Positions 11,651-58,680 of a stretch of 64,000 bases of DNA are shown one piece after another (position 1 is the stretch's first letter; the number at the start of each line of letters is the position of its first letter). The notes under the pieces are model-generated. The model saw only the letters and a list, made by a program, of their open reading frames with translations. It was not told the DNA's origin and did no database searches. The stretch is from the human T2T-CHM13v2.0 reference genome, Homo sapiens: NCBI GenBank assembly GCA_009914755.4, contig CP086569.2, positions 21,120,001-21,184,000 on the forward strand, in the 5' to 3' direction. The position numbers and the translations under genes were made by a program.

Positions 11651-11667
11651 GCAGACCATACTGGTGA

Positions 11668-17062: not shown

Positions 17063-18022
17063 TTGTTCCTTCAGATGTGTCCAGAGTTTCTTCCTTCTGG
17101 CAGGTTCGTGGTCTTTCTCACTTCCTTAATGAAGCTGCAGACCATACTGGTGAGTGTTACAACACTTAAAGCTGTTATGTCCAGAGATTTTTGCTTTAGA
17201 TATGTCCAGAGTTTCTTCCTTCTGACAGTTTCATGGTCTTGCTCACTTCAAGAATGAAGCTGCAGACCTTACTGGTGAGTGTTACAGCACTTAAAGGTGT
17301 TATTTCCAGAGTTTGTTACTTCAGATATGTCCAGAGTTTCTTCCTTCTGGCAGGTTCATGGTCTTGCTCACTTCAAGAACGAAGCTGCAGACCTTTGCGG
17401 TGAGTGATACAACACCGAAAGGTGTTATATCCAGAGTTTGTTCCTTCAGATGTGTCCAGAGTTTCTTCCTTCTGTCAGGTTCACGGTCTTGCTCACTTCA
17501 AGAGTGAAGCTGCAGACCTTACTGGTTAGTGTTACAGCACTTAAAGGTGTTATTTCCAGAGTTTGTTCCTTCAGATGTGTCCAGAGTTTCTTCCTTCTGG
17601 CAGGTTCATGTTCTTGCTCCCTTCACGAATGAAGCTGCAGACCTTACTGTTGAGTGTTAAAGCACTGAACGGTGATATGTCCAGAATTTGTTCCTTCAGA
17701 TGTGTCCAGAGTTTCTTCCTTCTTGCAGATTCATGGTGTTGCTCACTTCAAGAATGAAGCTGCAGACCTTAGTGATGAGTGTTACAGCACTTTAAGGTGT
17801 TATGTCCAGAGTTTTTTCCTTCAGATGTGTCCAGCGTTTCTTCCTTCTGGCAGGTTCATCGTCTTGCTCACTTCAAGAATGAAGCTGCAGACCTTACTGT
17901 TGAGTGTTAAAGCACTTAAAGCTGTTATGTCCAGAGTTTGTTCCTTCAGATGTGTACAGAGTGTCTTGCTTCTGGCAGGTTCATGGTGTTGCTCACTTCC
18001 AGAATTAAGCTGCAGACCTTAG
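17063..18022. repeat. ~1-kb block duplicated at 22446-23314 (offset ~5.38 kb)
   Basis: Matching peptides at 17063/22446, 17313/22684, 17438/22821 and 17563/22934 (…LLPSRMKLQTLLLSVKALNGDMSR…), and 17672/23045 (…LQIHGVAHFKNEAADL…). Confidence 0.65.
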
Positions 18023-36000: not shown

Positions 36001-39000
36001 CTTTTGTGGTGAGTGTTACAGCAGTTAAAGTTGTTATGTCCAGAATTTGTTCATTCAGATGTGTCTAGGGTTTCTTCCTTCTGGCAGGTTCATGGTCTTG
36101 CTCACTTCAACAATGAAGCTGCAGACCTTCCTGGTGAGTGTTACAGCACTTAAAGTGTTATGTCCAGTGTTTGTTCCTTCAGATGTGTCCATTGTGTCCC
36201 CTTTCTGGCAGGTTCATGGTCTTGCTCACTTCACTAATGAAGCTGCAGACCTTACTGGTGAGTGTTACAGCACTTAAAGGTGTTATGTCCAGAGTTTGTT
36301 CCTTCAGATGTGTCCAGTGTCTCTTCCTTCTAGCAGGTTCATGGTCTTGCTCACTTCAAGAATGGAGCTGCAGACTTTTGTGGTGAGTGTTACAGCACTT
36401 AAAGGTGTTATGTCCAGAATTTGTTCCTTCAGATGTGTCCAGTGTTTCTTCCTTCTGACAGGTTCATGGACTTGCTCACTTCAAGAATGAAGCTGCAGAC
36501 CTCACTGGTGAGTGTTACAGTACTTAAAGGTGTTATGTCCAGAGTTTGTTCCTTCAGATGCGTCCAGAGTTTCTACCTTCTCTCAGGTTCATGGTCTTGG
36601 TCACTTCAAGAATGAAGGTGCACGCCTTAGTGATGAGTGTTACAGCACTTAAAGGTGTTATGTCCAGACTTTGTTCCTTCAGATATGTCCAGAGTTTCTT
36701 CCTTCTGGCAGGTTCCTTGTCTTGCTGATTTCAAGAATGAAGCTGCAGACCTTAGTGGTGAGAGTTACAGCACTTAAAGGTGTTATGTCCAGACTTTGTT
36801 CCTTCAGATATGTCCAGAGTTTCTTCCTTCTGGCAGGTTCATAGTCTTGCTCACTTCACTAATGAAGCTGAAGACCTTACTGGTGAGTGTTACAGCACTT
36901 AAAGGTGTTATGTCCAGAGTTTGTTCCTTCAGATGTGTCCAGAGTTTCTTCCTTCTGGCAGGTTCATGGTGTTGCTCACTTCAAGAATGAAGCTGCAGAC
37001 CTTAGTGTTGAGTGTTACAGCACTTTAAGGTGTTATGTCCAGAGTTTTTTCCTTCAGATATGTCCATCGTTTCTTCCTTCTGGCAGGTTCATGGTCTTGC
37101 ACACTTCAAGAATGAAGCTGCATACCTTACTCTTGAGTGTTAAGGCATTTAAAGGTGTTATGTCCAGAGTTTGTTCCTTCAGATGTCTCCAGAGTTTCTT
37201 CCTTCTGGCAGGTTCATGGTGTTGCTCACTTCAAGAATGAAGCTGCAGACCTTAGTGTTGAGTGTTACAGCACTTAAAGGTGTTATGTCCAGAGATTTTT
37301 CCTTCAGATATGTCCAGCGTTTCTTCCTTCTGGCAGGTTCATGGTCTTGCACACTTCAAGAATGAAGCTGCAGACCTTACTGTTGAGTTTTAAAGCTCTT
37401 AAAGGTGTTATGTCCAGAGTTTTTTCCTTCAGATGTGTCCAGAGTTTCTTCCTTCTGGCAGGTTCATGGTGTTGCTCACTTCAAGAATGAAGCTGCAGAC
37501 CTTAGTGTTGCGTGTTACAGCACTTAAAGGTGTTATGTCCAGAGTTTTTTCCTTCAGATGTGTCCAGCGTTTCTTCCTTCTAGCAGGTTCATCGTCTTGC
37601 TCACTTCAAGAATGAAGCTGCAGACCTTACTGGTGAGTGTTACAGCACTTAAAGGTGTTATGTCCAGAGTTTGTTCCTTCAGATGTGTCCAGAGTGTATT
37701 CCTTCTGGCAGGTTCATGGTCTTGCTCCCTTCACTAATGAAGCTGCAGACCTTACTGTGGAGTGTTACAGCACTTAAAGGTGTTTTGTCCAGAGTTTGTT
37801 CCTTCAGATGTGTCCAGAGTTTCTTCCTTCTAGCAGGTTCATTGTCTTGCTCATTTTAAGAATTAAGCTGCAGACCTTAGTGGTGAGTGTTAAGGCACTT
37901 AAAGGTGTTATGTCCAGAGTTTGCTCCTTCAGATGTGTCCAGAGATTCTTCCTTCTGGCAGGTTCATGCTGTTGCTCACTTCAAGAATGAAGCTGCAGAC
38001 CTTACTGGTGAGTGTTACAGCACTTAAAGCTGTTATGTCCAGCGTTTGTTCCTTCAGATATTTCCAGAGTTTCTTCCTTCTGGCAGGCTCGTGGTCTTGC
38101 TAACTTCTATAATGAAGCTGCAGACCTTACTGGTGAGTGTTACAGCACTTAAAGGTGTTATGTCCAGAGTTTGTTTCTTCAGATGTGTCCAGAATTTCTT
38201 CCTTCTGGCAGTTTCGTGGTCTTCCTCACTTCAAGAATGAAGCTGCAGACCTTACTAGTGAGTGTTACAGCACTTAAATGTGTTATGTCCAGAGTTTGTT
38301 CCTTCAGATGTGTCCAGGGTTTCTGTCTTCTGGCAGGTTCATGTCTTGCTCACTTCAAGATTGAAGCTGCCGACCTTAGTGGTGAGTGTTACAGCACTTA
38401 AAGGTGTTAAGTTCCAGAGTTTTTTCCTTCAGATGTGTCCAGTGTTTCTTCCTTCTGGCAGGTTCTTGGTCTTGCTCACTTCAAGAATGAAGCTGCAGAC
38501 CTTACTGTTGAGTGTTAAAGCACTTAAAAGTGTTATCTCCAGAGTTTGTTCCTTCAGATGTGTCCAGAGTTTCTGCCTTCTGGCAGGTTCATGGTGTTGC
38601 TCACTTCAAGAATGAAGCTGCAGACCTTAGTGTTGAGTGTTACAGCACTTAAAGGTGTTATGTCCAGACTTTTTTCCTTCAGATGTGTCCAGAGTTTCTT
38701 CCTTCTTGCAGGTTCGTGGTCTTGCTCACTTCCTTAATGAAGCTGCAGACCTTACTGGTGAGTGTTACAGAACTTAAAGCTGTTATGTCCAGAGTTTGTT
38801 CCTTCAGATGTTTCCAGAGTATCTTCCTTCTGGCAGGTTCGTGGACTTGCTCACTTCTTTAATGAAGCTGCAGACCTAACTGGTGAGTGTTACAGCACTT
38901 AAAGGTGTTATGTCCAGAGTTTCTTTCTTCAGATGTGTCCAGAGTTTCTTCCTTCTGGCAGTTTCCTGGTCTTCCTCACTTCAAGAATGAAGCTGCAGAC

Positions 39001-40419
39001 CTTACTGGTGAGTGTTACAGCACTTAATGGTGTTATGTCCAGAGTTTGTTCCTTCAGATGTGTCCATTGTGTCCTCCTTCTGGCAGGTTCATGGTCTTGC
39101 TCACTTCACTATTGAAGCTGCAGACCTTACTGGTGAGTGTTACAGCACTTAAAGGTGTTATGTCCAGAGATTGTTCCTTCAGATGCGTCCAGAGTTTCTA
39201 CCTTCTGGCAGGTTCATGGACTTGGTCACTTGAAGAATGAAGGTGCAGAACTTAGTGGTGACTGTTACAGCACTTAAAGGTGTTATGTCCAGACTTTGTT
39301 CCTTCAGATATGTCCAGAGTTTCTTCCTTCTGGCAGGTTCATTGTCTTGCTCATTTCAAGAAAGAAGCTGCAGACCTCAGTGGTGAGTGTTACAACACTT
39401 AAATGTAGTATGTCCAGACTTTGTTCCTTCAGATATGTCCAGATTTTCTTCCTTCTGGCAGGTTCATGGTCTTGTTCACTTCACTAATGAAGCTGCAGAC
39501 CTTACTGGTGAGTGTTACAACACTTAAAGGTGTTATGTCCAGAGTTTATTCCTTCAGATGGGTCCAGGGTTTCTGTCTTCTGGCAGGTCCATGGTCTTGC
39601 TCACTTCAAGAATGAAGCTGCAGACCTTAGTGGTGAGTGTTACAGCACTTAAAGGTGTTATGTCCAGAGTTTCTACCTTCAGATGTGTCCAGAGTTTCTT
39701 CCTTCTTGCAGGTTCGTGGTCTTGCTCACTTCCTTTATGAAGCTGCAGACCTTCCTGGTGAGTGTTACAGCCTTTAAAGGTGTTATGTCCAGAGTTTGTT
39801 CCTTCAGATGTGTCCATTGTGTCCTCCTTCTGGCAGGTTCATGGTCTTGCTCACTTCACTAATGAAGCTGCAGACCTTACTGGTGAGTGTTACAGCACTT
39901 AAAGGTATTATGTCCAGAGTTTTTTCCTTCAGATGTGTCCAGGGTTTCTGTCTTCTGGCTGGTTCATGTCTTGGTCACTTCAAGAATGAAGCTGCCGACC
40001 TTAGTGGTGACTGTTACAGCACTTAAACGTGTTATGTCCAGAGTTTTTTCCTTCAGATGTGTCCAGCGTTTCTTCCTTCTGGCAGGTTCATGGTCTTGCT
40101 CACTTCAAGAATGAAGCTGCAGACCTTACTGTTGAGTGTTAAAGCACTTAAAGGTGTTATATCCAGAGTTTGTTCCTTCAGATGTGTCCAGAGTTTCTTC
40201 CTTCTGGCAGGTTCATGGTGTTGCTCACTTCAACAATGAAGCTGCAGACCTTAGTGTTGAGTGTTACAGCACTTAAAGGTGTTATGTCCAGAGTTTGTTC
40301 CTTCAGATGTGACCAGAGTTTCTTCCTTCTTGCAGGTTCGTGGTCTTGCTCACTTCCTTAATGAAGCTGCAGGCCTTCCTGGTTTGTGTTACAGCACTTA
40401 AAGTTGTTATGTCCAGAGT

Positions 40420-42500
40420 TTGTTCCTTCAGATGTGTCCATTGTGTCCTCCTTCTGGCAGGTTCATGGTCTTGCTCACTTCACTAATGAAGCTGCAGACC
40501 TTACTGGTGAGTGTTACAGCACTTAAAGGTGTTATGTCCGGAGTTTGTTCCTTCAGATGTGTCCAGTGTGTCTTCCTTCTGGCAGGTTCATGGTCTTGCT
40601 CACTTCAAGAATGGAGCTGCAGACTTTTGTGGTGAGTGTTACAGCAGTTAAAGTTGTTATGTCCAGAATTTGTTCCTTCAGATCTGTCCAGTGTTTCTTC
40701 CTTCTGGCAGGTTCATGGTCTTGCTCAGTTCAAGAATGAAGCTGCAGACCTTACAGGTGAGTGCTACAGAACTTAAAGGTGTTGTGTCCAGAGGTTGTTC
40801 CTTCAGATGCGTCCAGAGTTTCTACCTTCTGGCAGGTTCATGGTGTTGGTCACTTCAAGAATGAAGGTGCAGACCTTAGTGGTGAGTGTTACAGCACTTA
40901 AAGGTGTTATGTCCAGACTTTGTTCCTTCAGATATGTCCAGAGTTTCTTCCTTCTGGCAGGTTCATTGTCTTGCTCATTTCAAGAATGAAGCTGCAGACT
41001 TTAGTGGTGAGTGTTACACCACTTAAAGGTGTTATGTCCAGACTTTGTTCCTTCAGATATGTCCAGAGTTTCTTCCTTCTGGCAAGTTCATGGTCTTGCT
41101 CACTTCACTAATAAAGCTGAAGACCTTACTGGTGAGTATTACAGCACTTTAAGGTGTTATGTCCAGAGTTTTTTCCTTCGGATGTGTCCAGCGTTTCTTC
41201 CTTCTGGCAAGTTCATGGTCTTGCTCACTTCAAGAATGAAGCTGCAGACCTTACTGTTTAGTGTTAAAGCACTTAAAGGTGTTATATCCAGAGTTTGTTC
41301 CGTCAGATGTGTCCAGAGTTTCTTCCTTCTGGCAGGTTCATGGTGTTGCTCACTTCAAGAATGAAGCTGCAGACCTTAGTGTTGAGTGTTAAAGCACTTA
41401 AAGGTGTTATGTCCAGAGTTTGTTCCTTCAGATGTGTCCAGAGTTTCTTCCTTCTTGCAGGTTCGTGGTCTTGCTCACTTCCTTAATGAAGCTGCAGACC
41501 TTCCTGGAGAGTGTTACAGCACTTAAAGGTGTTATGTCCAGAGTTTGTTCCTTCAGATGTGTCCATTGTGTCCTCCTTCTGGTAGGTTCATGGTCTTGCT
41601 CACTTCACTAATGAAGCTGCAGACCTTACTGGTGAGTGTTAAAGCACTTAAAGGTGTTATGTCCAGAGTTTGTTCCTTCAGATGTGTCCACTGTCTCTTC
41701 CTTCTGGCAGGTTCATGGTCTTGCTCACTTCAAGAATGGAGCTGCAGACATTTGTGGTGAGTGTTACATCAGTTAAAGTTGTTATGTCCAGAATTTGTTC
41801 CTTCAGATGTGTCCAGTGTTTCTTCCTTCTGCCAGGTTCATGGGCTTGCTCACTTCAGGAATGAAGCTGCAGACCTTACAGGTGAGTGTTACAGAACTTA
41901 AAGGTGTTGTGTACAGAGATGGTTCCTTCAGATGCGTCCAGAGTTTCTACCTTCTGGCAGTTTCATGGTCTTGGTCACTTCAAGAATGAAGGTGCAGGCC
42001 TTAGTGGTGAGTGTTACAGCACTTAAAGGTGTTATGTCCAGACTTTGTTCCTTCAGATATGTCCAGAGTTGCTTCCTTCTGGCAGGTTCATTGTCTTGCT
42101 CATATCAAGAATGAAGCTGCAGACTTTAGTGGTGAGTGTTACAGCACTTAAAGTTGTTATGTCCAGACTTTGTACCTTCAGATATGTCCAGAGTTTCTTC
42201 CTTCTGGCAGGTTCATGGTCTTGCTCACTTCACTAATAAAGCTGAAGACCTTACTGGTGAGTGTTACAGCACTTTAAGGTGTTATGTCCAGAGTTTGTTT
42301 CCTCAGATGTGTCCAGGGTTTCTGTCTTCTGGCAGGTTCCTGGTCTTGCTCACTTCAAGAATGAAGCTGCAGACCTTAGTGGTGAGTGTTACAGCACTTA
42401 AAGGTGTTATGTCCAGAGATTTTTCCTTCAGATGTGTCCAGCGTTTCTTCCTTCTGTCAGGTTCATGGTCTTGCTCACTTCAAGAATGAAGCTGCAGACC
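40420..42500. repeat. Tandem ~9-monomer (1125-bp) higher-order unit x ~2, copies moderately diverged; related modules at 36138-36730 and 30801-31120
   Basis: Peptide series C(PLCPPSGRF)/V/…SFYLLAGSWCWSLQE/MRPEF…KVQ/ICPEF…ISRMKLQ/…TNKAEDLTG recurs with a 1125-bp offset (40420/41545, 40545/41670, 40670/41795, 40795/41932, 40920/42045, 41011/42136) and with a 4249-bp offset from 36138/36296/36421/36546. Confidence 0.7.
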
Positions 42501-44169
42501 TTAGTGTTGAGTGTTAAGGCACTTAAAGGTGTTATGTCCAGAGTTTGTTCCTTCAGATGTCTCCAGGTTTTCTTCCTTCTGGCAGGTTCATGGTGTTGCT
42601 CACCTCAAGAATGCAGCTTCAGACCTCAGTGTTGAGTGTTACAGCACTCAAAGGTGTTATGTCCAGAGTTTTTTCCTTCAGATATGTCCAGCGTTTCTTC
42701 CTTCTGGCAGGTTCATGGTCTTGCACACTTCAAGAATGAAGCTGCAGACCTTACTGTTGAGTTTTAAAGCACTTAAATGTGTTATGTCCAGAGTTTGTTC
42801 CTACAGATGTGTCCAGAGTTTCTTCCTTCTGGCAGGTTCATGGTGTTGCTCACTTCAAGAATGAAGCTGCAGACCTTACTGTTGAGTGTTACAGCACTTA
42901 AAGGTGTTATGTCCAGAGTTTTTTCCTTCAGATGTGTCCAGCGTTTCTTCCTTCTGGGAGGTTCATCGTCTTGCTCACTTCACTAATGAAGCTGCAGACC
43001 TTACTGGTGAGTGTTACAGCACTTAAAGCTGTTATGTCCAGAGTTTGTTCCTTCAGATTTGTCCAGTGTCTCTTCCTTCTGGCAGGTTCATGGTCTTGCT
43101 CACTTCAAGAATGGAGCTGCAGACTTTTGTGGTGAGTGTTACAGCAGTTAAAGTTGTTATGTCCAGAATTTGTTCCTTCAGATGTGTCCAGTGTTTCTTC
43201 CTTCTGGCAGGTTTATGGTCTTGCTCACTTCAAGAATGAAGCTGCAGACCTTAGTGGTGAGTGTTACAGCACTTAAAGGTGTTATGTCCAGAGTTTTTTC
43301 CTTCAGATATGTCCAGCGTTTCTTACTTCTGGCAGGTTCATGGTCTTGCTCACTTCAAGAGTAAAGCTGCAGACCTTACTGTTGAGTTTTAAAGCTCTTA
43401 AAGGTGTTATGTCCAGAGTTTGTTCCTTCAGATGTGTCCAGAGTTTCTTCCTTCTGGCAGGTTCATGGTGTTGCTCACTTCAAGAATGAAGCTGCAGACC
43501 TTAGTGTTGAGTGTTACAGCACTTAAAGGTGTTATGTCCAGAGTTTTTTCCTTCAGATGTGTCCAGCGTTTCTTCCTTCTGGCAGGTTCATCGTCTTGCT
43601 CACTTTAAGAATGAAGCTGCAGACCTTACTCTTGAGTGTTAAGGCACTTAAAGGTGTTATGTCCAGAGTTTGTTCCTTCAGATGTGTCCAGAATTTCTTC
43701 CTTCTGGCAGGTTCATGGTGTTGCTCACTTCAAGAATGAAGCTGCAGACCTTAGTGTTGAGTGTTACGGCACTTAAAGGTGTTATGTCCAGAGTTTTTTC
43801 CTTCAGATATGTCCAGCGTTTCTTCCTTCTGCCAGGTTCATGGTCTTGCACACTTCAAGAATGAAGCTGCAGACCTTACTGTTGAGTTTTAAAGCACTTA
43901 ATGGTGTTATGTCTAGAGTTTGTTCCTTCAGATGTGTCCAGAGTTTGTTCCTTCTGGCAGGTTCATGGTGTTGCTCACTTCAAGAATGAAGCTGCAGACC
44001 TTAGTGTTGAGTGTTACAGCACTTAAACGTGTTATGTGCAGAGTTTGTTCCTTCATATGTGTCCAGAGTTTCTTCCTTCTTGCATGTTCGTGGTCTTGCT
44101 CACTTCCTTAATGAAGCTGCAGACCTTCCTGGTGAGTGTTACAACACTTAAATGTGTTATGTCCAGAGT

Positions 44170-45300
44170 TTGTTCCTTCAGATGTGTCCTGAGTGTCTTC
44201 CTTCTGGCAGGTTCATGGTCTTGCTCACTTCACTAATGAAGCTGCAGACCTTACTGGTGAGTGTTACAGCCCTTAAAGGTGTTATGTCCAGAGTTTGTTC
44301 CTTCAGATGTGTCCAGGGTTTCTGTCTTCTGGCAGGTACATGGTCTTGCTCACTTCAAGAATGAAGCTGCCGAACTTAGTGGTGAATGTTACAGCACTTA
44401 AAGGTGTTATGTCCAGAGTTTGTTCCTTCAGATGTGTCCAACGTTTCTTCTTTCTGGCAGGTTCATGGTCTTGCTCACTTCAAGAATGAAGCTGCAGACC
44501 TTACTGTTTAGTGCTAAAGCTCTTAAAGGTGTTATGTCCAGAGTTTGTTCCTTCAGATGTGTCCAGAGTTTCTTCCTTCTGGCAGGTTCATGGTGTTGCT
44601 CACATCAAGAATGAAGCTGCAGACCTTAGTGTTGAGTGTTACAGCACTTAAAGGTTTTATGTCCAGAGTTTGTTCCTTGAGATGTATCCAGAGTTTCTTC
44701 CTTCTTGCAGGTTCGTGATCTTGCTCACTTCCTTAATGAAGCTGCAGACCTTACTGGTGAGTGTTACAGCACTTAAAGGTGTTATGTCCAGAGTTTGTTC
44801 CTTCAGATGTGTCCAGTGTTTCTTCCTTCTGGCAGGTTCATGGTCTTGCTCACTTCAAGAATGAAGCTGCAGAGTTTTGTGGTGAGTGTTACAGCAGTTA
44901 AAGTTGTTATGTCCAGAATTTGTTCCTTCAGATGTGTCCAGTGTTTCTTCCTTCTGGCAGGTTCATGGTCTTGCTCACTTCAAGAATGAAGCTGCAAACC
45001 ATACTGGTGAGTGATACAGCACTTAAAGGTGTTATGCCCAGAGTTTGTTCCTTCAGATGTGTCCAGAGTGTCTTCCTTCAGGCAGGTTCATGGTCTTGCT
45101 CATTTCAAGAATTAAGTTGCAGACCTTAGTGGTGAGGGTTACAGCACATAAAGGTGTTATGTTCAGAGTTTGTTCCTTCAGATGTGTCCAGAGTTTCTTC
45201 CTTCTGGCCGTTTCGTGGTCTTCCTCACTTCAGCAATGAAGCTGCAGACCTTACTTGTGAGTGTTACAGCACTTAAAGGTGTTATGTCCAGAGTTTGTTC
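44170..45300. repeat. ~1.1-kb block (9 monomers) with a copy 25 monomers downstream (47295-48425) and a partial copy at 53668-54240
   Basis: ORF peptides match pairwise at an exact 3125-bp (25 x 125) offset: 44295/47420, 44420/47545, 44670/47795, 44795/47920, 44920/48045, 45045/48170. They match again at 44670/53668, 44795/53793, 44920/53918, 45045/54043 and 45170/54168. Confidence 0.75.
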
Positions 45301-45414
45301 CTTCAGATGTGTCCAGAGTGTCTTCCTTCTAGCAGGTTCATGGTCTTGCTCACTTCACTAATGAAGCTGCAGACTTTACTGGGGAGTGTTACAGCACTGA
45401 AAGGTGTTTTGTCC

Positions 45415-46950
45415 AGAGTTTGTTCCTTCAGATGTGTCCAGAGTTTCTTCCTTCTAGCAGGTTTATTGTCTTGCTCATTTCAAGAATTACGCTGCAGACC
45501 TTAGTGGTGAGTGTTTCAGCACTTAAAGGTGTTATGTCCAGAGTTTGTTCCTTCAGATGTGTCCTGAGTTTCTTCCTTCTGGCAGGTTCATGGTGTTGCT
45601 CACTTCAACAATGAAGCTGCAGACCTTAGTATTGAGTGTTACAGCACTTAAAAGTGTTATGTCCAGAGTTTCTTCCTTGAGATGTGTCCAGAGTTTCTTC
45701 CTTCTTGCAGGTTCGTGGTCTTGCTCAGTTCCTTAATGAAGCTGCAGACCTTACTGGTGAGTGTTACAGCACTTAAAGGTGTTATGTCCAGAGTTTGTTC
45801 CTTCAGATGTGTCCAGTGTTTCTTCCTTCTGACAGGTTCATGGTGTTGCTCACTTCAAGAATGAAGCTGCCGACCTTACTGGTGAGTGTCACAGCACTTA
45901 AAGGTATTATGTGCAGAGTTTGTTCCTTCAGAATTGTCCAGTGTTTCTTCCTTCTGGCAGGTTCATGGTCTTGCTCACTTCAAGAATGAAGCTGCAGACC
46001 TTACTGGTGAGTGTTACAGCACTTAAAGCTGTTATGTCCAGAGTTTGATCCTTCAGATGTTTCCAGAGTTTCTTCCTTCTGGCAGGTTCATGGTGTTGCT
46101 CACTTCAACAATGAAGCTGCAGACCTTAGTGTTGAGTGTTACAGCACTTAAAGGTGTTATGTTCAGAGTTTGTTCCTTCAGATGTGTCCAGAGTTTCTTC
46201 CTTCTAGCAGGTTTATTGTCTTGCTCATTTCAAGAATTACGCTGCAGACCTTAGTGGTGAGTGTTTCAGCACTTAAAGGTGTTATGTCCAGAGTTTGTTC
46301 CTTCAGATGTGTCCTGAGTTTCTTCCTTCTGGCAGGTTCATGGTGTTGCTCACTTCAACAATGAAGCTGCAGACCTTAGTATTGAGTGTTACAGCACTTA
46401 AAAGTGTTATGTCCAGAGTTTCTTCCTTGAGATGTGTCCAGAGTTTCTTCCTTCTTGCAGGTTCGTGGTCTTGCTCAGTTCCTTAATGAAGCTGCAGACC
46501 TTACTGGTGAGTGTTACAGCACTTAAAGGTGTTATGTCCAGAGTTTGTTCCTTCAGATGTGTCCAGTGTTTCTTCCTTCTGACAGGTTCATGGTGTTGCT
46601 CACTTCAAGAATGAAGCTGCCGACCTTACTGGTGAGTGTCACAGCACTTAAAGGTATTATGTGCAGAGTTTGTTCCTTCAGAATTGTCCAGTGTTTCTTC
46701 CTTCTGGCAGGTTCATGGTCTTGCTCACTTCAAGAATGAAGCTGCAGACCTTACTGGTGAGTGTTACAGCACTTAAAGCTGTTATGTCCAGAGTTTGATC
46801 CTTCAGATGTTTCCAGAGTTTCTTCCTTCTGGCAGGTTCATGGTGTTGCTCACTTCAACAATGAAGCTGCAGACCTTAGTGTTGAGTGTTACAGCACTTA
46901 AAGGTGTTATGTTCAGAGTTTGTTCCTTCAGATGTGTCCAGAGTTTCTTC
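45415..46950. repeat. Tandem duplication of a 750-bp (6-monomer) unit, ~2.05 copies, 100% identical where compared
   Basis: Direct comparison of sequence lines 45421-46200 with 46171-46950 shows identity at every position checked. ORF peptides 45420/46170, 45545/46295, 45682/46432 and 45795/46545 are identical. Flanks diverge immediately outside. Confidence 0.9.
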
Positions 46951-49900
46951 CTTCTTGCAGGGTCGTAGTCTTGCTCACTTCCTTAATGAAGCTGCAGACC
47001 TTACTGGTGAGTGTTACAGCACTTAAAGGTGTTATGTCCAGAGTTTCTTCCTTCAGATGTCTCCAGTGTTTCTTCCTTCTGGCAGGTTCATGGTGTTCCT
47101 CACTTCAAGAATGAAGCTGCAGACCTTACTGGTGAGTGTTACAGCACTCATAGGTGTTATGTGCAGAGTTTGTTCCTTCAGATGTGTCCAGAGTTTCTTC
47201 CTTCTTGCAGGTTGGTGGTCTTTCTCACTACCTTAATGAAGCTGCAGACCTTACTGGTGAATGTTACAGCACATAAAGGTGTTATGTCCAGAGTTTGTTC
47301 CTTCAGATGTGTCCTGAGTGTCTTCCTTCTGGCAGGTTCATGGTCTTGCTCACTTCACTAATGAAGCTGCAGACCTTACTGGTGAGTGTTACAGCCCTTA
47401 AAGGTGTTATGTCCAGAGATTGTTCCTTCAGATGTGTCCAGGGTTTCTGTCTTCTGGCAGGTACATGGTCTTGCTCACTTCAAGAATGAAGCTGCCGAAC
47501 TTAGTGGTGAGTGTTACAGCACTTAAAGGTGTTATATCCAGAGTTTGTTCCTTCAGATGTGTCCAGCGTTTCTTCTTTCTGGCAGGTTCATGCTCTTGCT
47601 CACTTCAAGAATGAAGCTGCAGACCTTACTGTTTAGTTCTAAAGCTCTTAAAGGTGTTATGTCCAGAGTTTGTTCCTTCAGATGTGTCCAGAGTTTCTTC
47701 CTTCTGGCAGGTTCATGGTCTTGCTCACATCAAGAATGAAGCTGCAGACCTTAGTGTTGAGTGTTACAGCACTTAAAGGTTTTATGTCCAGAGTTTGTTC
47801 CTTGACATGTGTCCAGAGTTTCTTCCTTATTGCAGGTTCGTGATCTTGCTCACTTCCTTAATGAAGCTGCAGACCTTACTGGTGAGTGTTACAGCACTTA
47901 AAGGTGTTATGTCCAGAGTTTGTTCCTTCAGATGTGTCCAGTGTTTCTTCCTTCTGGCAGGTTCATGGTCTTGCTCACTTCACGAATGAAGCTGCAGAGT
48001 TTTGTGGTGAGTGTTACAGCAGTTAAAGTTGTTATGTCCAGAATTTTTTCCTTCAGATGTGTCCAGTGTTTCTTCCTTCTGGCAGGTTCATGGTCTTGCT
48101 CACTTCAAGAATGAAGCTGCAAACCTTACTGGTGAGTGATACAGCACTTAAAGGTGTTATGCCCAGAGTTTGTTCCTTCAGATGTGTCCAGAGTGTCTTC
48201 CTTCAGGCAGGTTCATGGTCTTGCTCATTTCAAGAATTAAGTTGCAGACCTTAGTGGTGAGGGTTACAGCACTTAAAGGTGTTATGTTCAGAGTTTCTTC
48301 CTTCAGATGTGTCCAGAGTTTCTTCCTTCTGGCAGGTTCATGGTGTTGCTCACTTCAAGAATGAAGCAGCAGACCTTACTGGTGAGTGTTACAGCACTTA
48401 AAGCTGTTATGTCCAGAGTTTTTTCCTTCAGATGTTTCCAGAGTTTCTTCCTTCTGGCAGGTTCGTGGTCTTGCTCACTTCTTTAATGAAGCTGCAGACC
48501 TTACTGGTGAGTGTTACAGCACTTAAAGGTGTTATGTCCAGAGTTTGTTTCTTCAGATGTGTCCAGAGTTTCTTCTTTCTGGCAGTTTCGTGGTCTTCCT
48601 CACTTCAAGAATGAAGCTGCAGACCTTAATGGTGAGTGTTACACCACTTAAAGGTGTTATGTCCAGAGTTTGTTCCTTCAGATGTGTCCAGAGTGTCTTC
48701 CTTCTGGCAGGTTCATGGTCTTGCTCACTTCACTAATGAAGCTGCAGACCTTACTGGGGAGTGTTACAGCACTTAAAGTTGTTTTGTGCAGAGTTTGCTC
48801 CTTCAGATGTGTCCAGAGTTTCTTCCTTCTAGCAGGTTCATTGTCTTGCTCATTTCAAGAATTAAGCTACAGATCTTAGTGGTGAGTGTTACAGCACATA
48901 AAGGTGTTATGTCCAGAGTTTTTTCCTTCAGATGTGTCCAGTGTTTCTTCCTTCTGGCAGGTTCTTGGTCTTGCTCACTTCAAGAATGAAGCTGCAGACC
49001 TTACTGTTGAGTGTTAAAGCACTTAAAAGTGTTATCTCCAGAGTTTGTTCCTTCAGATCTTTCCAGAGTTTCTGCCTTCTGGCAGGTTCATGGTCTTGCT
49101 CATTTCAAGAATTGAGCTGCAGACCTTAGTGGTGAGGGTTACAGCACTTAAAGGTGTTATGTGCAGAGTTTGTTCCTTCAGATGTGTCCAGAGTTTCTTC
49201 CTTCGTGCAGGTTCGTGGTCTTTCTCACTTCCTTAATGAAGCTGCAGACCTTACTGATGAGTGTTACAGCAATAAAAGGTGTTATGTCCAGAGTTTGTTC
49301 CTTCAGATGTGTCCTGAGTGTCTTCCTTCTGGCAGGTTCATGGTCTTGCTCACTTCAAGAATGAAGCTGCAGACCTTATTGTTGAGTGTTAAAGCACTTA
49401 AAGGTGTTATCTCCAGAGTTTGTTCCTTCAGATGTGTCCAGAGTTTCTTCCTTCTGGCAGGTTCTTGGTGTTGCTCACTTCAACAATGAAGCTGCAGACC
49501 TTAGTGTTGAGTGTTACAGCACTTAAAGGTGTTATGTCCAGAGTTTGTTCCTCCAGATGTGTCCAGAGTTTCTTCCTTCTTTCAGGGTCGTAGTCTTGCT
49601 CACTTCCTTAATGAAGCTGCAGACCTTACTGGTGAGTGTTACAGCACTTAAAGGTGTTATGTCCAGAGTTTCTTCCTTCAGATGTGTCCAGTGTTTCTTC
49701 CTTCTGGCAGGTTCATGGTGCGGCTCACTTCAAGAATGAAGCTGCAGACCTTACTGGTGAGTGTTACAGCACTCAAAGGCGTTATGTGCAGAGTTTGTTC
49801 CTTCAGATGTGTCCAGAGTTTCTTCCTTCTTGCGGGTTGGTGGTCTTTCTCACTACCTTAATGAAGCTGCAGACCTTACTGGTGAATGTTACAGCACTTA

Positions 49901-51234
49901 AAGGAGTTATGTCCAGAGTTTGTTCCTTCAGATGTGTCCTGAGTGTCTTCCTTCTGGCAGGTTCATGGTCTTGCTCACTTCACTAATGAAGCTGCAGACC
50001 TTACTGGTGAGTGTTACAGCACTTAAAGGTGTTATGTCCAGAGTTTGTTCCTTCAGATGTGTCCAGGGTTTCTGTCTTCTGGCAGGTACATGGTCTTGCT
50101 CACTTCAAGAATGAAGCTGCCGAACTTAGTGGTGAATGTTACAGCACTTAAAGGTGTTATGTCCAGAGTTTTTTCCTTCAGATGTGTCCAGTGTTTCTTC
50201 CTTCTGGAAGGTTCATGGTCTTGCTCACTTCAGGAATGAAGCTGCAGAACTTACTGGTGTGTGATACAGCACTTAAAGGTGTTATGTCCAGAGTTTGTTC
50301 CTTCAGATGTGTCCAGAGTTTCTTCCTTCTGGCAGGTTCATGGTGTTGCTCACTTCAAGAATGAAGCAGCAGACCTTACTGGTGAGTGTTACAGCAGTTA
50401 AAGGTGTTATGACCAGAGTTTGTTCCTTCAGATGTTTCCAGAGTTTCTTCCTTCTGGCGGGTTCGTGGTCTTGCTCACTTCTTTAATGAAGCTGCAGACC
50501 TTACTGGTGAGTGTTACAGCACTTAAAGGTGTTATGTCCAGAGTTTGTTTCTTCAGATGAGTCCAGAGTTTCTTCCTTCTGGCAGTTTCGTGATCTTCCT
50601 CACTTCAAGAATGAAGCTGCAGACCTTACTGGTGAGTGTTACAACACTTAAAGGTGTTATGTCCAGAGTTTATTCCTTCAGATGTGTCCAGAGTGTCCTC
50701 CTTCTGGCAGGTTCATGGTCTTGCTCACTTCACTAATGAAGCTGCAGACCTTACTAGTGAGTGTTACAGCACTTAAAGGTGTTATGTCCAGAGTTTTTTC
50801 CTTCAGATGTGTCCAGGGTTTCTGTCTTCTGGCAGGTTCATGGTCTTGCTCACTTCAAGAATGAAGCTGCAGACCTTAGTGGTGAGTGTTACAGCACTTA
50901 AAGGTGTTATGTCCAGAGTTTATTCTTTCAGATGTGTCCAGCGTTTCTTCCTTCTGGCAGGTTCATGGTCTTGCTCACTTCAAGAATGAAGCTGCAGTCC
51001 TTACTGTTGAGTGTTAAAGCACTTAAAGGTGTTATCTCCAGAGTTTTTTCCTTCAGATGTGTCCAGAGTTTCTTCCTTCTGGCAGGTTCTTGGTGTTGCT
51101 CACTTCAACAATGAAGCTGCAGACCTTAGTGTTGAGTGTTACAGCAGTTAAAGGTGTTATGTCCAGAGTTTGTTCCTTCAGATGTGTCCAGAGTTTCTTC
51201 CTTCTTGCAGGGTCGTAGTCTTGCTCACTTCCTT

Positions 51235-53232
51235 AATGAAGCTGCAGACCTTACTGGTGAGTGTTACAGCACTTAAAGGTGTTATGTCCAGAGTTTCTTC
51301 CTTCAGATGTGTCCAGTGTTTCTTCCTTCTGGCAGGTTCATGGTGTTCCTCACTTCAAGAATGAAGCTGCAGACCTTACTGGTGAGTGTTACAGCACTCA
51401 TAGGTGTTATGTGCAGAGTTTGTTCCTTCAGATGTGTCCAGAGTTTCTTCCTTCTTGCAGGTTGGTGGTCTTTCTCACTACCTTAATGAAGCTGCAGACC
51501 TTAATGGTGAATGTTACAGCACATAAAGGTGTTATGTCCAGAGTTTGTTCCTTCAGATGTGTCCTGAGTGTCTTCCTTCTGGCAGGTTCATGGTCTTGCT
51601 CACTTCACTAATGAAGCTGCAGACCTTACTGGTGAGTGTTACAGCCCTTAAAGGTGTTATGTCCAGAGATTGTTCCTTCAGATGTGTCCAGGGTTTCTGT
51701 CTTCTGGCAGGTACATGGTCTTTCTCACTTCAAGAATGAAGCTGCCGAACTTAGTGGTGAGTATTACAGCACTTAAAGGTGTTAGGTCCAGAGTTTTTTC
51801 TTCAGATGTGTCCAGCGTTTCTTCCTTCTGGCAGGTTCTTGGTCTTGCTCACTTCAAGTATGAAGCTGCAGACCTTACTGTTGAGTGTTAAAGCACTTAA
51901 AGGTGTTATGTCCAGAGTTTGTTCCTTCAGATGTGTCCAGACTTTCTTCCTTCTGGCAGGTTCATGCTGTTGCTCACTTCAAGAATGAAGCTGCAGACCT
52001 TAGTGTTGAGTGTTACAGCACTTAAAGGTGTTTTGTCCAGAGTTTGTTCCTTCAGATGTGTCCAGAGTTTCTTCCTTCTAGCAGGTTCATTGTCTGGCTC
52101 TTTTCAGGAATGAAGCTGCAGACCTTAGTGGTGAGTGTTACAACACTTAAAGGTGTTATGTCCAGAGTTTTTTCCTTCAGATGTGTCCAGAGTGTCTTCC
52201 TTCTGGCAGGTTCATGGTCTTGCTCACTTCACTAATGAAGCTGCAGACCTTACTGGTGAGTGTTACAGCACTTAAAGGTGTTATGTCCAGAGTTTCTTCC
52301 TTCAGATGTGTCCAGTGTTTCTTCCTTCTGGCAGGTTCATGGTGTTCCTCACTTCAAGAATGAAGCTGCAGACCTTACTGGTGAGTGTTACAGCACTCAT
52401 AGGTGTTATGTGCAGAGTTTGTTCCTTCAGATGTGTCCAGAGTTTCTTCCTTCTTGCAGGTTGGTGGTCTTTCTCACTACCTTAATGAAGCTGCAGACCT
52501 TACTGGTGAATGTTACAGCACATAAAGGTGTTATGTCCAGAGTTTGTTCCTTCAGATGTGTCCTGAGTGTCTTCCTTCTGGCAGGTTCATGGTCTTGCTC
52601 ACTTCACTAATGAAGCTGCAGACCTTACTGGTGAGTGTTACAGCCCTTAAAGGTGTTATGTCCAGAGATTGTTCCTTCAGATGTGTCCAGGGTTTCTGTC
52701 TTCTGGCAGGTACATGGTCTTTCTCACTTCAAGAATGAAGCTGCCGAACTTAGTGGTGAGTATTACAGCACTTAAAGGTGTTAGGTCCAGAGTTTTTTCT
52801 TCAGATGTGTCCAGCGTTTCTTCCTTCTGGCAGGTTCTTGGTCTTGCTCACTTCAAGTATGAAGCTGCAGACCTTACTGTTGAGTGTTAAAGCACTTAAA
52901 GGTGTTATGTCCAGAGTTTGTTCCTTCAGATGTGTCCAGACTTTCTTCCTTCTGGCAGGTTCATGCTGCTGCTCACTTCAAGAATGAAGCTGCAGACCTT
53001 AGTGTTGAGTGTTACAGCACTTAAAGGTGTTTTGTCCAGAGTTTGTTCCTTCAGATGTGTCCAGAGTTTCTTCCTTCTAGCAGGTTCATTGTCTGGCTCT
53101 TTTCAGGAATGAAGCTGCAGACCTTAGTGGTGAGTGTTACAACACTTAAAGGTGTTATGTCCAGAGTTTTTTCCTTCAGATGTGTCCAGAGTGTCTTCCT
53201 TCTGGCAGGTTCATGGTCTTGCTCACTTCCCT
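51235..53232. repeat. Tandem duplication of a 999-bp (8-monomer) unit, 2 copies with only single-base differences noted; the first ~0.5 kb of the unit also occurs at 46920-47500 and 49545-50125
   Basis: Sequence at 51241-51320 equals 52240-52319. Single mismatches were seen at 51970/52969 and 52231/53230. ORF peptides 51261/52260 (116 aa), 51545/52544, 51670/52669, 51779/52778 and 51919/52918 are identical, and 52044/53043 differ only in the last residue. Confidence 0.88.
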
Positions 53233-55542
53233 AATGAAGCTGCAGACCTTACTGGTGAGTGTTACAGCACTTAAAGGTGTTATATCCAGAGTTTGTTCCT
53301 TCAGATGTGTCCAGAGTTTCTGTCTTCTGGCAGGTTCATGGTCTTGCTCACTTCAAGAATGAAGCTGCAGACCTTAGTGGTGAGTGTTACAGCACTTAAG
53401 GGTGTTATGTCCAGAGTTTTTTCCTTCAGATGTGTCCAGCGTTTCTTCCTTCTGGCAGGTTCATGGTGTTGCTCACTTCAAGAATGATGCTGCAGACTTT
53501 ACTGTTGAGTGTTAAGGCACTTAAACGTGTTATTTCCAGAGTTTGTTCCTTCAGACATGTCCAGAGTTTCTTCCTTCTGGCAGGTTCATGCTGTTGCTCA
53601 CGTCCAGAATGAAGCTGCAGACCTTAGTGTTGAGTGTTACAGCACTTAAAGGTTTTATATCCAGAGTTTGTTCCTTGAGATGTATCCAGAGTTTCTTCCT
53701 TCTTGCAGGTTCGTGATCTTGTTCACTTCCTTAATGAAGCTGCAGACCTTACTGGTGAGTGTTACAGCACTTAAAGGTGTTATGTCCAGAGTTTGTTCCT
53801 TCAGATGTGTCCAGTGTTTCTTCCTTCTGGCAGGTTCATGGTCTTGCTCACTTCAAGAATGAAGCTGCAGAGTTTTGTGGTGAGTGTTACAGCAGTTAAA
53901 GTTGTTATGTCCAGAATTTGTTCCTTCAGATGTGTCCAGTGTTTCTTCCTTCTGGCAGGTTCATGGTCTTGCTCACTTCAAGAATGAAGCTGCAAACCTT
54001 ACTGGTGAGTGATACAGCACTTAAAGGTGTTATGCCCAGAGTTTGTTCCTTCAGATGTGTCCAGAGTGTCTTCCTTCAGGCAGGTTCATGGTCTTGCTCA
54101 TTTCAAGAATTAAGTTGCAGACCTTAGTGGTGAGGGTTACAGCACTTAAAGGTGTTATGTTCAGAGTTTGTTCCTTCAGATGTGTCCAGAGTTTCTTCCT
54201 TCTGGCCGTTTCGTGGTCTTCCTCACTTCAGCAATGAAGCTGCAGACCTTAGTTGTGAGTGTTACAGCACTTAAAGGTGTTATGTCCAGAGTTTGTTCCT
54301 TCAGATGTGTCCAGAGTTTCTTCCTTCTGGCAGGTTCATGTTGTTGCTCACTTCAAGAATGAAGCTGCAGACCTTAGTGTTGAGTGTTACAGCACTTAAT
54401 GGTGTTTTGTCCAGAGTTTGTTCCTTCAGATGTGTCCAGAATTTCTTCTTTCTAGTAGGTTCATTGTCTTGCTCATTTCAAGAATGAAGCTGCAGACCTT
54501 AGTGGTGGGTGTTACAACACTTAAAGGTGTTATGTCCAGAGTTTTTTCCTTCAGATGTGTCCAGAGTGTCTTCCTTCTGGCAGGTTCATGGTCTTGTTCA
54601 CTTGAAGAATGAAGCTGCAAACCTCACTCTTTAGTGCTAAAGCACTTAAAGGTGTTATGTCCAGAGTTTGTTCCTTCAGATGTGTCCAGAGTTTCTTCCT
54701 TCTGGCAGGTTCATGGTGTTGCTCACATCAAGAATGAAGCTGCAGACCTTAGTGTTGAGTGTTACAGCACTTAAAGGTGTTATGTCCAGAGTTTGTTCCT
54801 TGAGATGTGTCCAGAGTTTCTCCATTCTTGCAGGTTCGTGGTCTTGCTCACTTCCTTAATGAAGCTGCAGACCTTACTGGTGAGTGTTACGGCACTTAAA
54901 GGTGTTATGTCCTGAGTTTGTTCCTTCAGATGTGTCCAGAGTGTCTTCCTTCTGGCAGGTTCATGGTCTTGCTCACTTCACTAATGAAGCTGCAGACCTT
55001 ACTGGGGAGTGTTACAGCACTTCAAGGTGTTTTGTCCAGAGTTTGTTCCTTGAGATGTGTCCAGAGTTTTTTCTTTCTAGCAGGTTCATTGTCTTGCTCA
55101 TTTCAAGAATTAAGCTGCAGACCTTACTGGTGAGTTTTACAGCACTTAAAACTGTTATGTCCAGAGTTTGTTCCTTCAGATGTTTCCAGAGTTTCTTCCT
55201 TCTGGCAGGTTCGTGGTCTTGCTCACTTCCTTAATAAAGCTGCAGACCTTCATGGTGAGTGTTACAGCACTTAAAGGTGTTATGTCCAGCGTTTGTTCCT
55301 TCAGATGTGTCCAGCGTTTCTACCTTCTGGCAGGTTCATGGTCTTGCTCACTTCAAGAATGAAGCTGCAGACCTTACTGTTTAGTGTTAAAGCACTTAAA
55401 GGTGTTATGTCCAGAGTTTGTTCCTTCAGATGTGTCCAGAGTTTCTTCCTTCTGGCAGGTTCATGGTGTTGCTCACTTCAAGAATGAAGCTGCAGACCTT
55501 AGTGTTGAGTGTTACAGCACTTAAAGGTGTTATGTCCAGTGT

Positions 55543-58500: not shown

Positions 58501-58680
58501 AGTGTTGAGTGTTACAGAACTTAAAGGTGTTATGTCCAGTGTTTGTTCCTTCAGATGTGTCCAGAGTTTCTTCCTTCTTGCAGGTTCGTGGTCTTGCTCA
58601 CTTCCTTAATGAAGCTGCAGAACTTACTGGTGAGTGATACAGCACTTAAAGGTGTTATGTCCAGAGTTTCTTCCTTCAGA
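55543..58680. repeat. Variable-length higher-order units delimited by a recurring B-type then V-type monomer pair: one 15-monomer unit (55543-57417) followed by a 9-monomer unit (57418-58542) that is a deleted version of it. A further copy of part of the unit lies at 59418-60042, offset 2875 from 56543-57167
   Basis: The B/V pair (…PSCRFVVLLTSLMKLQ… then …PVFLPSGRFMVLLISRMKLQTFV…SVTP/AVKVVMS) starts at 55543, 57418 and 58543. Peptides 56168~57668~58918, 56305~57793~59043, 56543~58043~59418, 56668~59543, 56805~59650, 56930~59805, 57055~59918. Confidence 0.65.

What the first reader, a model, noticed from the sequence alone, without database searches (positions are those of the whole stretch)
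45415..46950. Perfect 2 x 750-bp tandem duplication, a footprint of a very recent unequal exchange
About 1.5 kb reads as two back-to-back identical copies of a 6-monomer unit; every line I compared is identical, including rare variants such as 'gtttattgtc…gaattacgctgcagacc' and 'gaattgtccag'. The surrounding array is only ~90-97% identical between monomers. A duplication this clean must be extremely young, or else an assembly collapse or expansion artefact.
Basis: seen in the sequence. Interest (0 to 1): 0.6.

Follow-up and report, generated by a model that had tools for sequence, protein, structure and literature searches.

The report
Young six-monomer duplication in Y satellite DYZ19
The window is a piece of the human Y-chromosome satellite DYZ19, and the flagged 1.5 kb is a real, perfectly clean back-to-back duplication of six 125-bp repeat units, which is an ordinary product of repeat misalignment in a region already known to be very unstable.

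Summary
Window 45414-46205 equals 46164-46955 base for base (792 bp at offset 750). That makes two identical 750-bp copies (6 x 125 bp) plus a 42-bp shared junction. Identity at that offset drops at once to 86-94% per monomer block on both sides. It is the longest exact repeat in the window; the next is 465 bp.

The whole 64-kb window is one head-to-tail 125-bp satellite with about 512 monomers, mean pairwise identity 88.7% and no higher-order periodicity. It is human DYZ19 (Yq11.222, derived from an LTR12B fragment):
- A published male-specific qPCR target (YRS) matches hundreds of monomers and gives the published 117-bp amplicon.
- Ten monomer fingerprints at window 9.8-22.8 kb are collinear with GRCh38 chrY:20,305,318-20,318,282.

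The part holding the duplication is absent from GRCh38, so copy number could not be cross-checked.

The best explanation is an in-register unequal sister-chromatid exchange or replication slippage, resolved inside 42 bp of consensus sequence. An 8-monomer duplication 5 kb away (4 mismatches) has the same anatomy.

"Extremely young" is overstated. At the standard Y substitution rate, zero differences in 750 bp only bounds the age at about 2.6 My or less (95%).

This is an ordinary event in a known, highly variable satellite, so interest is low.

The parts
1..64000 (+). Uninterrupted head-to-tail array of the 125-bp DYZ19 satellite monomer (about 512 copies). Consensus: CAGAGTTTGTTCCTTCAGATGTGTCCAGAGTTTCTTCCTTCTGGCAGGTTCATGGTCTTGCTCACTTCAAGAATGAAGCTGCAGACCTTACTGGTGAGTGTTACAGCACTTAAAGGTGTTATGTC
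   Evidence: TRF finds period 125, 512.6 copies and 88% matches. nhmmer finds 513 + strand monomers that tile the window; most gaps between hits are 0-3 bp and the largest is 12 bp. 458 of 511 monomers are exactly 125 bp. The YRS primers and probe match and give the 117-bp amplicon. Fingerprints are collinear with GRCh38 chrY.
45414..46163 (+). Copy 1 of the duplicated 750-bp unit (monomers 363-368 of my segmentation)
   Evidence: String-identical to 46164-46913. All six monomer pairs at lag 6 have 0 differences.
46164..46913 (+). Copy 2 of the duplicated 750-bp unit (monomers 369-374)
   Evidence: Same as copy 1. It carries the same variants that are unique in the window: GTTTATTGTC...GAATTACGCTGCAGACC at 46211/46234 and GAATTGTCCAG at 46681.
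46914..46955 (+). 42-bp stretch (CAGAGTTTGTTCCTTCAGATGTGTCCAGAGTTTCTTCCTTCT), also present at 45414-45455 and 46164-46205. The exchange point can only be placed somewhere inside this stretch.
   Evidence: The exact run at offset 750 is 792 = 750 + 42 bp. The first mismatches are at 45413/46163 and at 46206/46956. The 42-mer is the consensus form of monomer positions 1-42 and is carried by 69 of 511 monomers.
51289..53286 (+). Comparator: an older back-to-back duplication of 8 monomers (51289-52287 and 52288-53286, offset 999) with the same anatomy
   Evidence: There are 4 mismatches in 999 bp. The near-identical run is 51234-52295, which is 999 + 63 bp. The run of 8 monomers equals the lag of 8. 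Both copies share the same 124-bp monomer variant, at 51789 and 52788.

Best explanation
The window is part of DYZ19. This is the 125-bp, LTR12B-derived, heterochromatic satellite array in Yq11.222 of the human Y chromosome. Positions 45414-46913 are a genuine tandem duplication of six monomers.

The most likely mechanism has four steps:
1. In the male germ line, two sister chromatids (or the nascent and template strands at a replication fork) paired out of register by exactly six monomers.
2. The exchange or template switch was resolved inside a 42-bp stretch where both misaligned monomers carry the consensus sequence.
3. The product gained 750 bp, and no spacer or foreign bases were added.
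4. No substitution has hit either copy since.

The structure, the in-register junction and the identity of the array are shown. Sister-chromatid exchange versus replication slippage, the germ-line timing and the absolute age are inferred. The duplication has no known function. It is one step in the ordinary turnover by which this array expands, contracts and becomes locally homogeneous.
For: **The structure**
- There is a 792-bp exact run at offset 750, the longest exact repeat in the window.
- The edges are sharp, with flank blocks at 86-94% identity.
- Both copies are exactly 6 x 125 bp, and the junction overlap is the consensus 42-mer.

**Duplication rather than conversion**
- For both back-to-back events in the window, the near-identical run equals the lag plus a short overlap: 750 + 42 bp and 999 + 63 bp. 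Duplication predicts this. For a conversion tract it would be a coincidence.

**Continuum of similar events**
- There are 27 diagonal segments of at least 3 monomers, each monomer pair differing at no more than 4 positions. The 27 listed show 0-3% divergence.
- All are in register and they cluster at 44-54 kb.

**No higher-order repeat**
- Mean monomer distance is flat across lags 1-60.

**Identity as DYZ19**
- The male-specific human Y qPCR target YRS (PMC10454206) matches exactly 134, 170 and 165 times (forward primer, reverse primer, probe), all on the + strand. 456 of 512 in-silico amplicons are the published 117 bp.
- Ten monomer fingerprints at window 9803-22649 sit at GRCh38 chrY 20,305,318-20,318,166, nine of them at the constant offset 20,295,517. 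These include three perfect-trio spacings of 8108, 1249 and 875 bp.
- The literature describes DYZ19 as 125-bp head-to-tail units derived from LTR12B. [quoted passage not shown]

**Non-coding**
- No ORF exceeds 147 aa, and there are no Rfam or tRNA hits.
Against: - No reads and no second haplotype could be examined, so the copy number rests on a single assembly of unknown provenance.
- The neighbourhood is absent from GRCh38. Unit-specific and flank-specific variants give zero true hits in the GRCh38 hit table, so the ancestral single-copy state has not been seen.
- The six monomers have no collinear older paralogue elsewhere in the window that could serve as an outgroup.
- The sequence alone cannot separate sister-chromatid exchange from replication slippage or template switching.
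Confidence: 0.85

Rival explanations
1. Assembly artefact: the assembler wrongly inserted a second copy of the 750-bp unit, or the true copy number is higher and was collapsed to two.
For: Perfect identity is what an artefactual copy would show. DYZ19 is hard to assemble, and the GRCh38 version is incomplete and rearranged. No read evidence is available here.
Against: - A false join needs a long, high-identity overlap at offset 750. Outside the unit that offset gives only 86-94% identity per monomer block, and only 42 exact bases at the junction.
- The structure is 1.5 kb, shorter than single HiFi or ONT reads. This is an inference, because the window's provenance is unknown.
- The duplicate is exactly 750 bp, in register. 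An untrimmed-overlap artefact would be a multiple of 125 only 1 time in 125.
- An older event with identical anatomy and 4 accumulated mismatches lies at 51.3-53.3 kb. That shows the process is biological in this array.
Confidence: 0.07
2. Gene conversion without length change: twelve distinct monomers already existed, and a conversion tract of about 750-790 bp from a partner misaligned by six monomers overwrote six of them.
For: Conversion also gives perfect identity with sharp boundaries. Homogenisation of parts of DYZ19 is reported.
Against: The tract length would have to equal the misalignment offset by coincidence. The observed run is 792 bp at an offset of 750. The same coincidence would then be needed again for the 8-monomer event (1062 bp at an offset of 999). 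Duplication predicts both values directly.
Confidence: 0.05
3. A local 6-monomer higher-order repeat (HOR): the two copies are the visible core of an established 750-bp periodicity.
For: The 750-bp period is an exact multiple of the monomer length. Satellites such as alpha satellite are organised in this way.
Against: There are only two copies. Blocks on both sides at offset 750 are at the background of 86-94%. Mean monomer distance is flat across lags 1-60 in the whole window and in each third of it.
Confidence: 0.02

Closest known systems
DYZ19 satellite array of the human Y chromosome (Yq11.222)
   Same: - It has a 125-bp unit arranged head to tail.
- Monomers match the male-specific YRS primers and probe and give the 117-bp amplicon.
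- Ten fingerprints are collinear with GRCh38 chrY:20.305-20.318 Mb.
- Patchy recent tandem duplications and regional homogenisation fit published descriptions.
   Different: Only window 9.8-22.8 kb is represented in GRCh38. Three markers in the first 5 kb (2823, 3446, 4318) and every marker tested from 23.5 to 63 kb, including the duplication, are absent there. The window therefore comes from another Y assembly or from a part that GRCh38 lacks.
Tandem duplication by unequal sister-chromatid exchange or replication slippage in satellite DNA (the classical unequal-crossover model of repeat evolution; from my own knowledge)
   Same: It is in register, has no spacer, places the junction within shared homology, and has a duplicate length equal to the lag.
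   Different: The exact identity at the junction is short (42 bp), and the flanking homology is only about 89%. A replication-based template switch is therefore as plausible as classical homologous exchange.
Higher-order repeats of alpha satellite (for example the 34-mer DYZ3 HOR mentioned)
   Same: If copied further, a multi-monomer unit duplicated in register would become a higher-order repeat.
   Different: There are only two copies, and the array has no periodicity beyond the monomer.

Membership tests
DYZ19 satellite | 125-bp repeat unit in a long head-to-tail array | tested here: met
   TRF finds period 125 and 512.6 copies. There are 513 + strand monomers and none on the - strand. 458 of 511 monomers are exactly 125 bp.
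DYZ19 satellite | Sequence identity with the units annotated at GRCh38 chrY about 20.05-20.35 Mb | tested here: met
   The YRS primers and probe have their GRCh38 hits on chrY 20.055-20.349 Mb (Table S4 of PMC10454206). They match the window and give 117-bp amplicons. Ten monomer fingerprints are collinear, nine at the constant offset 20,295,517.
DYZ19 satellite | Male-specific, on the Y chromosome | not testable with these tools
   This rests on the literature only. There was no YRS signal in female samples (PMC10454206). The same paper's Primer-BLAST also predicted chimpanzee products.
DYZ19 satellite | Monomer derived from the internal ~125-bp repeats of LTR12B (~85% similar) | not testable with these tools
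   No copy of the LTR12B consensus was available. The statement comes from PMC2588610 and 10.1101/2022.12.01.518724.
Tandem duplication by unequal exchange or slippage | Two adjacent copies with no spacer, in register with the repeat, and an identical run equal to the duplicate length plus the junction homology | tested here: met
   The exact run is 792 = 750 + 42 bp. The copies are 6 x 125 bp. The flank blocks are at 86-94%.
Tandem duplication by unequal exchange or slippage | Existence of the ancestral single-copy allele in related chromosomes | not testable with these tools
   GRCh38 lacks the whole neighbourhood. The unit-specific 40-mer is absent from the three contig collections.
Higher-order repeat (HOR) organisation | Many successive copies of a multi-monomer unit, with identity between units far above identity between monomers | tested here: not met
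   There are two copies only. The lag profile is flat at about 13.5 differences for lags 1-60.
Gene-conversion tract | Tract length independent of the offset between donor and acceptor, with array length unchanged | tested here: inconclusive
   The run length tracks the offset in both back-to-back events, which favours duplication. Array length before the event is unknown.

The most novel reading that the evidence does not exclude
The duplication is very recent, either private to one Y haplogroup or arising in a cell line. It would then be a segregating copy-number marker that catches the first step of a 6-monomer higher-order repeat forming inside the otherwise monomeric DYZ19 array. That would allow the per-generation rate of small in-register duplications in a non-recombining satellite to be measured on the Y phylogeny.
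Probability: 0.25. Interest if true: 0.3.

Novelty: already known. Interest (0 to 1): 0.15.

Why it matters
It matters little on its own. DYZ19 is a described satellite and the most size-variable assembled subregion of the human Y, ranging from 63.5 to 428 kb. Tandem duplications within it have already been noted in the complete Y assembly.

The practical value is modest. Small, cleanly bounded events like this one and the 8-monomer event at 51.3-53.3 kb could be scored across the dozens of assembled Y chromosomes. That would date them on the Y tree and estimate how fast a non-recombining satellite turns over.

The age calculation is a useful caution. A perfect 750-bp duplicate is not in itself evidence of a very recent or polymorphic event.

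Tried and rejected
- **Self-BLAST.** A self-BLAST of the window to catalogue duplications returned nothing usable. I replaced it with monomer segmentation by nhmmer plus a MAFFT distance matrix.
- **Whole-window ungapped identity by offset.** This is misleading because 53 monomers differ in length and register is lost. I used monomer-level lags instead.
- **HOR hypothesis.** Rejected.
- **Older paralogue as outgroup.** I looked for an older collinear paralogue of the 6-monomer unit in the window. There is none; the best non-self matches have 2-7 differences and are not collinear.
- **Copy number in GRCh38.** I tried to check copy number through the per-monomer mismatch table of PMC10454206. 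The unit, both flanks and every marker tested from 23.5 to 63 kb are absent, so no comparison is possible.
- **Public contig collections.** The unit-specific 40-mer gave 0 hits in metagenome, GTDB-genome and IMG/VR contigs.
- **Coding and RNA checks.** The only ORFs are periodic ones of 147 aa or less, mostly with non-ATG starts, and there are no Rfam families or tRNAs.
- **Protein and structure tools.** Not used, because nothing suggests a gene.
- **First literature search.** It was too loose and returned irrelevant papers.

Full report
**1. What is there**

The entire 64-kb window is one tandem array.
- Tandem Repeats Finder reports a single array from 1 to 64000 with period 125, 512.6 copies, 88% matches and no indel excess.
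- A profile built from 12 monomers finds 513 monomers, all on the + strand. They tile the window; most gaps between hits are 0-3 bp and the largest is 12 bp.
- Of 511 complete monomers, 458 are exactly 125 bp and the rest are 122-126 bp.
- GC content is flat at 0.43-0.44.
- Monomers differ from one another at 14.1 of 125 positions on average, which is 88.7% identity.
- Mean monomer distance does not depend on lag for lags 1-60, either in the whole window or in each third of it. There is no higher-order repeat. The array is monomeric with patches of recent local copying.
- There is no ORF above 147 aa, no Rfam family and no tRNA.

**2. The observation**

- Window 45414-46205 is identical to 46164-46955. 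This is an exact run of 792 bp at offset 750.
- Copies 45414-46163 and 46164-46913 are string-identical, 750 bp each, and made of six 125-bp monomers.
- Identity at offset 750 is 100% in six consecutive 125-bp blocks and 86-94% in every block to the left and right.
- With a per-base identity of 0.887, a 792-bp exact run has a probability near 1e-41 per start position. It is the longest exact repeat in the window; the next are 465 and 411 bp.
The one correction is that the surrounding monomers are about 89% identical on average, not 90-97%.

**3. Anatomy of the junction**

- The extra 42 bp beyond 750 reads CAGAGTTTGTTCCTTCAGATGTGTCCAGAGTTTCTTCCTTCT. It is present at 45414, 46164 and 46914.
- It is the consensus form of monomer positions 1-42 and is carried by 69 of 511 monomers.
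- The first mismatches lie immediately outside it, at 45413 versus 46163 and at 46206 versus 46956.
- This is what an exchange between two monomers misaligned by six units leaves behind: a product 750 bp longer, with a breakpoint that can only be placed somewhere within the shared 42-mer.

**4. Duplication or conversion?**

- A gene-conversion tract at offset 750 could be any length. A duplication must give a run equal to the offset plus the junction homology.
- The window holds two back-to-back events, and both obey the duplication rule:
  - lag 6 with a run of 6 monomers (750 + 42 bp, 0 mismatches);
  - lag 8 with a run of 8 monomers (51289-52287 versus 52288-53286, near-identity over 999 + 63 bp, 4 mismatches).
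- Both copies of the second event share the same 124-bp monomer variant.
- I therefore favour duplication over conversion. Only an orthologous haplotype can settle it.

**5. Context within the window**

- The 44-54 kb zone is a mosaic of recent copies at lags of 25, 34, 42, 47 and 72 monomers with 0.6-1.4% divergence.
- In that zone each monomer's nearest relative differs at only about 1 position, against 3-7 elsewhere.
- The flagged duplication is therefore the youngest of a continuum of in-register copying events.
- The six monomers of the unit have no collinear older paralogue in the window, so the window provides no internal outgroup.

**6. What the array is**

- A full-text search for fragments of the monomer found one paper, PMC10454206. 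Its YRS qPCR target is described as a male-specific multi-copy region of the human Y, with no signal from female samples.
- In the window the forward primer, reverse primer and probe match exactly 134, 170 and 165 times, all on the + strand. With 2 mismatches or fewer they match 435-476 times. 456 of 512 in-silico amplicons are the published 117 bp.
- The paper's Table S4 lists every GRCh38 hit with coordinates and mismatch patterns. The hits lie on chrY at 20.055-20.349 Mb.
- The window's perfect primer/probe trios at 12417, 20525, 21774 and 22649 have spacings of 8108, 1249 and 875 bp. These are identical to GRCh38 20,307,934 / 20,316,042 / 20,317,291 / 20,318,166.
- Unique mismatch patterns at window 11917, 14037, 14410, 15407, 15906 and 20275 are found in GRCh38 at exactly window + 20,295,517. 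The pattern at 9803 is found 2 bp off that offset.
- The locus is DYZ19. The literature describes it as follows:
  - it is a 125-bp head-to-tail array in Yq11.222 whose unit is about 85% similar to three tandem ~125-bp copies inside the LTR12B consensus (PMC2588610; 10.1101/2022.12.01.518724);
  - it is heterochromatic and methylated, and it is the most size-variable assembled Y subregion at 63.5-428 kb (10.1101/2022.12.01.518658);
  - it is strongly variable in population data (PMC4500966) and between two complete Y chromosomes (PMC10542383).
- Derivation from LTR12B and male specificity rest on those papers. I could not test either here.

**7. Relation to GRCh38**

- Only window 9.8-22.8 kb is collinear with GRCh38.
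- Markers at 2823, 3446, 4318 and 12667 are absent from the GRCh38 table. So is every marker tested from 23.5 to about 61 kb, including the unit-specific variants and unique variants in both flanks.
- These markers have total mismatch counts of 5 or fewer, so they fall in the retained part of the table.
- The window therefore comes from another human Y assembly, or from a part that GRCh38 lacks or has rearranged. GRCh38's DYZ19 is known to be incomplete.
- As a result, the copy number at this site could not be cross-checked.
- The unit-specific 40-mer is also absent from the metagenome, GTDB-genome and IMG/VR contig collections.

**8. Age**

- I used the Y substitution rate of 0.76e-9 per site per year quoted in 10.64898/2026.06.03.729890. 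At that rate two 750-bp copies diverge at 1.14e-6 differences per year.
- Zero differences gives a 95% upper bound of 2.6 My.
- The probability of remaining identical is 0.81 after 180 ky and 0.71 after 300 ky.
- The 8-monomer event (4 differences in 999 bp) gives a point estimate of about 2.6 My on the same clock.
- The same clock would put the 11.3% mean monomer divergence at 74 My. That looks too old for a satellite derived from a primate LTR (my own knowledge). Either the array mutates faster than unique Y sequence or it was seeded from already diverged copies. If the rate is severalfold higher, the upper bound falls below 1 My.
- Either way, 'extremely young' is not required. The duplication could be fixed in all living men.

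**9. Assembly artefact**

- I could not examine reads, so this rival is not excluded.
- A false join needs a long near-perfect overlap at offset 750. The sequence offers only 86-94% identity per monomer block there, and 42 exact bases.
- An untrimmed-overlap artefact would be in register with the 125-bp period only 1 time in 125.
- The older 8-monomer event shows the same process acting biologically.
- I put the artefact at about 7%.

**10. Verdict**

The flagged feature is a real, sharply bounded, perfect duplication of six monomers in the known human Y satellite DYZ19. It was most likely produced by in-register unequal sister-chromatid exchange or replication slippage. It is an ordinary instance of a known process at a locus already known to be highly variable. 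Interest is low (0.15). The most novel reading still open is that it is a haplogroup-private marker of an incipient higher-order repeat (probability about 0.25).

Noticed in passing
window 51234-53294: There is a second back-to-back duplication of 8 monomers (51289-52287 and 52288-53286, offset 999). It has 4 mismatches (51504, 51970, 52231, 52285) and a 63-bp junction overlap. Both copies share a 124-bp monomer variant (51789, 52788).
   Followed up: yes
window 44164-54160: This zone is a mosaic of dispersed recent copies. Monomers 353-360 resemble 378-385 (lag 25, 1.4%), 357-361 resemble 429-433 (lag 72, 0.64%), and 375-379 resemble 409-413 (lag 34, 0.96%). 376-379 resemble 418-421, and 382-385 resemble 429-432. 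The order of events was not reconstructed.
   Followed up: partly
window 1-20700 versus 20700-64000: The left part is more diverged (15-17 differences per 125 bp within 16-monomer blocks) and holds 37 of the 53 monomers of odd length (122-124 bp). The right part shows 11.5-14.7 differences and is almost entirely 125 bp. This fits the published picture of homogenised central and distal domains of DYZ19.
   Followed up: partly
window 9803-22765 (GRCh38 chrY:20,305,318-20,318,282): Only this ~13-kb segment is collinear with GRCh38. Markers at 2823, 3446, 4318 and 12667, and every marker tested from 23.5 kb onward, are absent from GRCh38's DYZ19. The window's source Y therefore differs structurally from GRCh38 on both sides, or GRCh38 is misassembled there.
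   Followed up: partly
every monomer, e.g. window 45409-45458; TRF rows at 1726, 4846, 13938, 16804, 17674, 29413, 58904: The 125-bp monomer contains an internal 25-bp direct sub-repeat (GTCCAGAGTTTGTTCCTTCAGATGT / GTCCAGAGTTTCTTCCTTCTGGCAG). The 42-bp crossover interval of the duplication lies within this sub-repeat region.
   Followed up: no
window, + strand, e.g. 11668-12021, 15283-15636, 36887-37240, 42136-42489: There are recurrent GTG-initiated ORFs of 116-117 aa (about 354 nt). They are by-products of the periodic sequence, and there is no evidence that they are coding.
   Followed up: no
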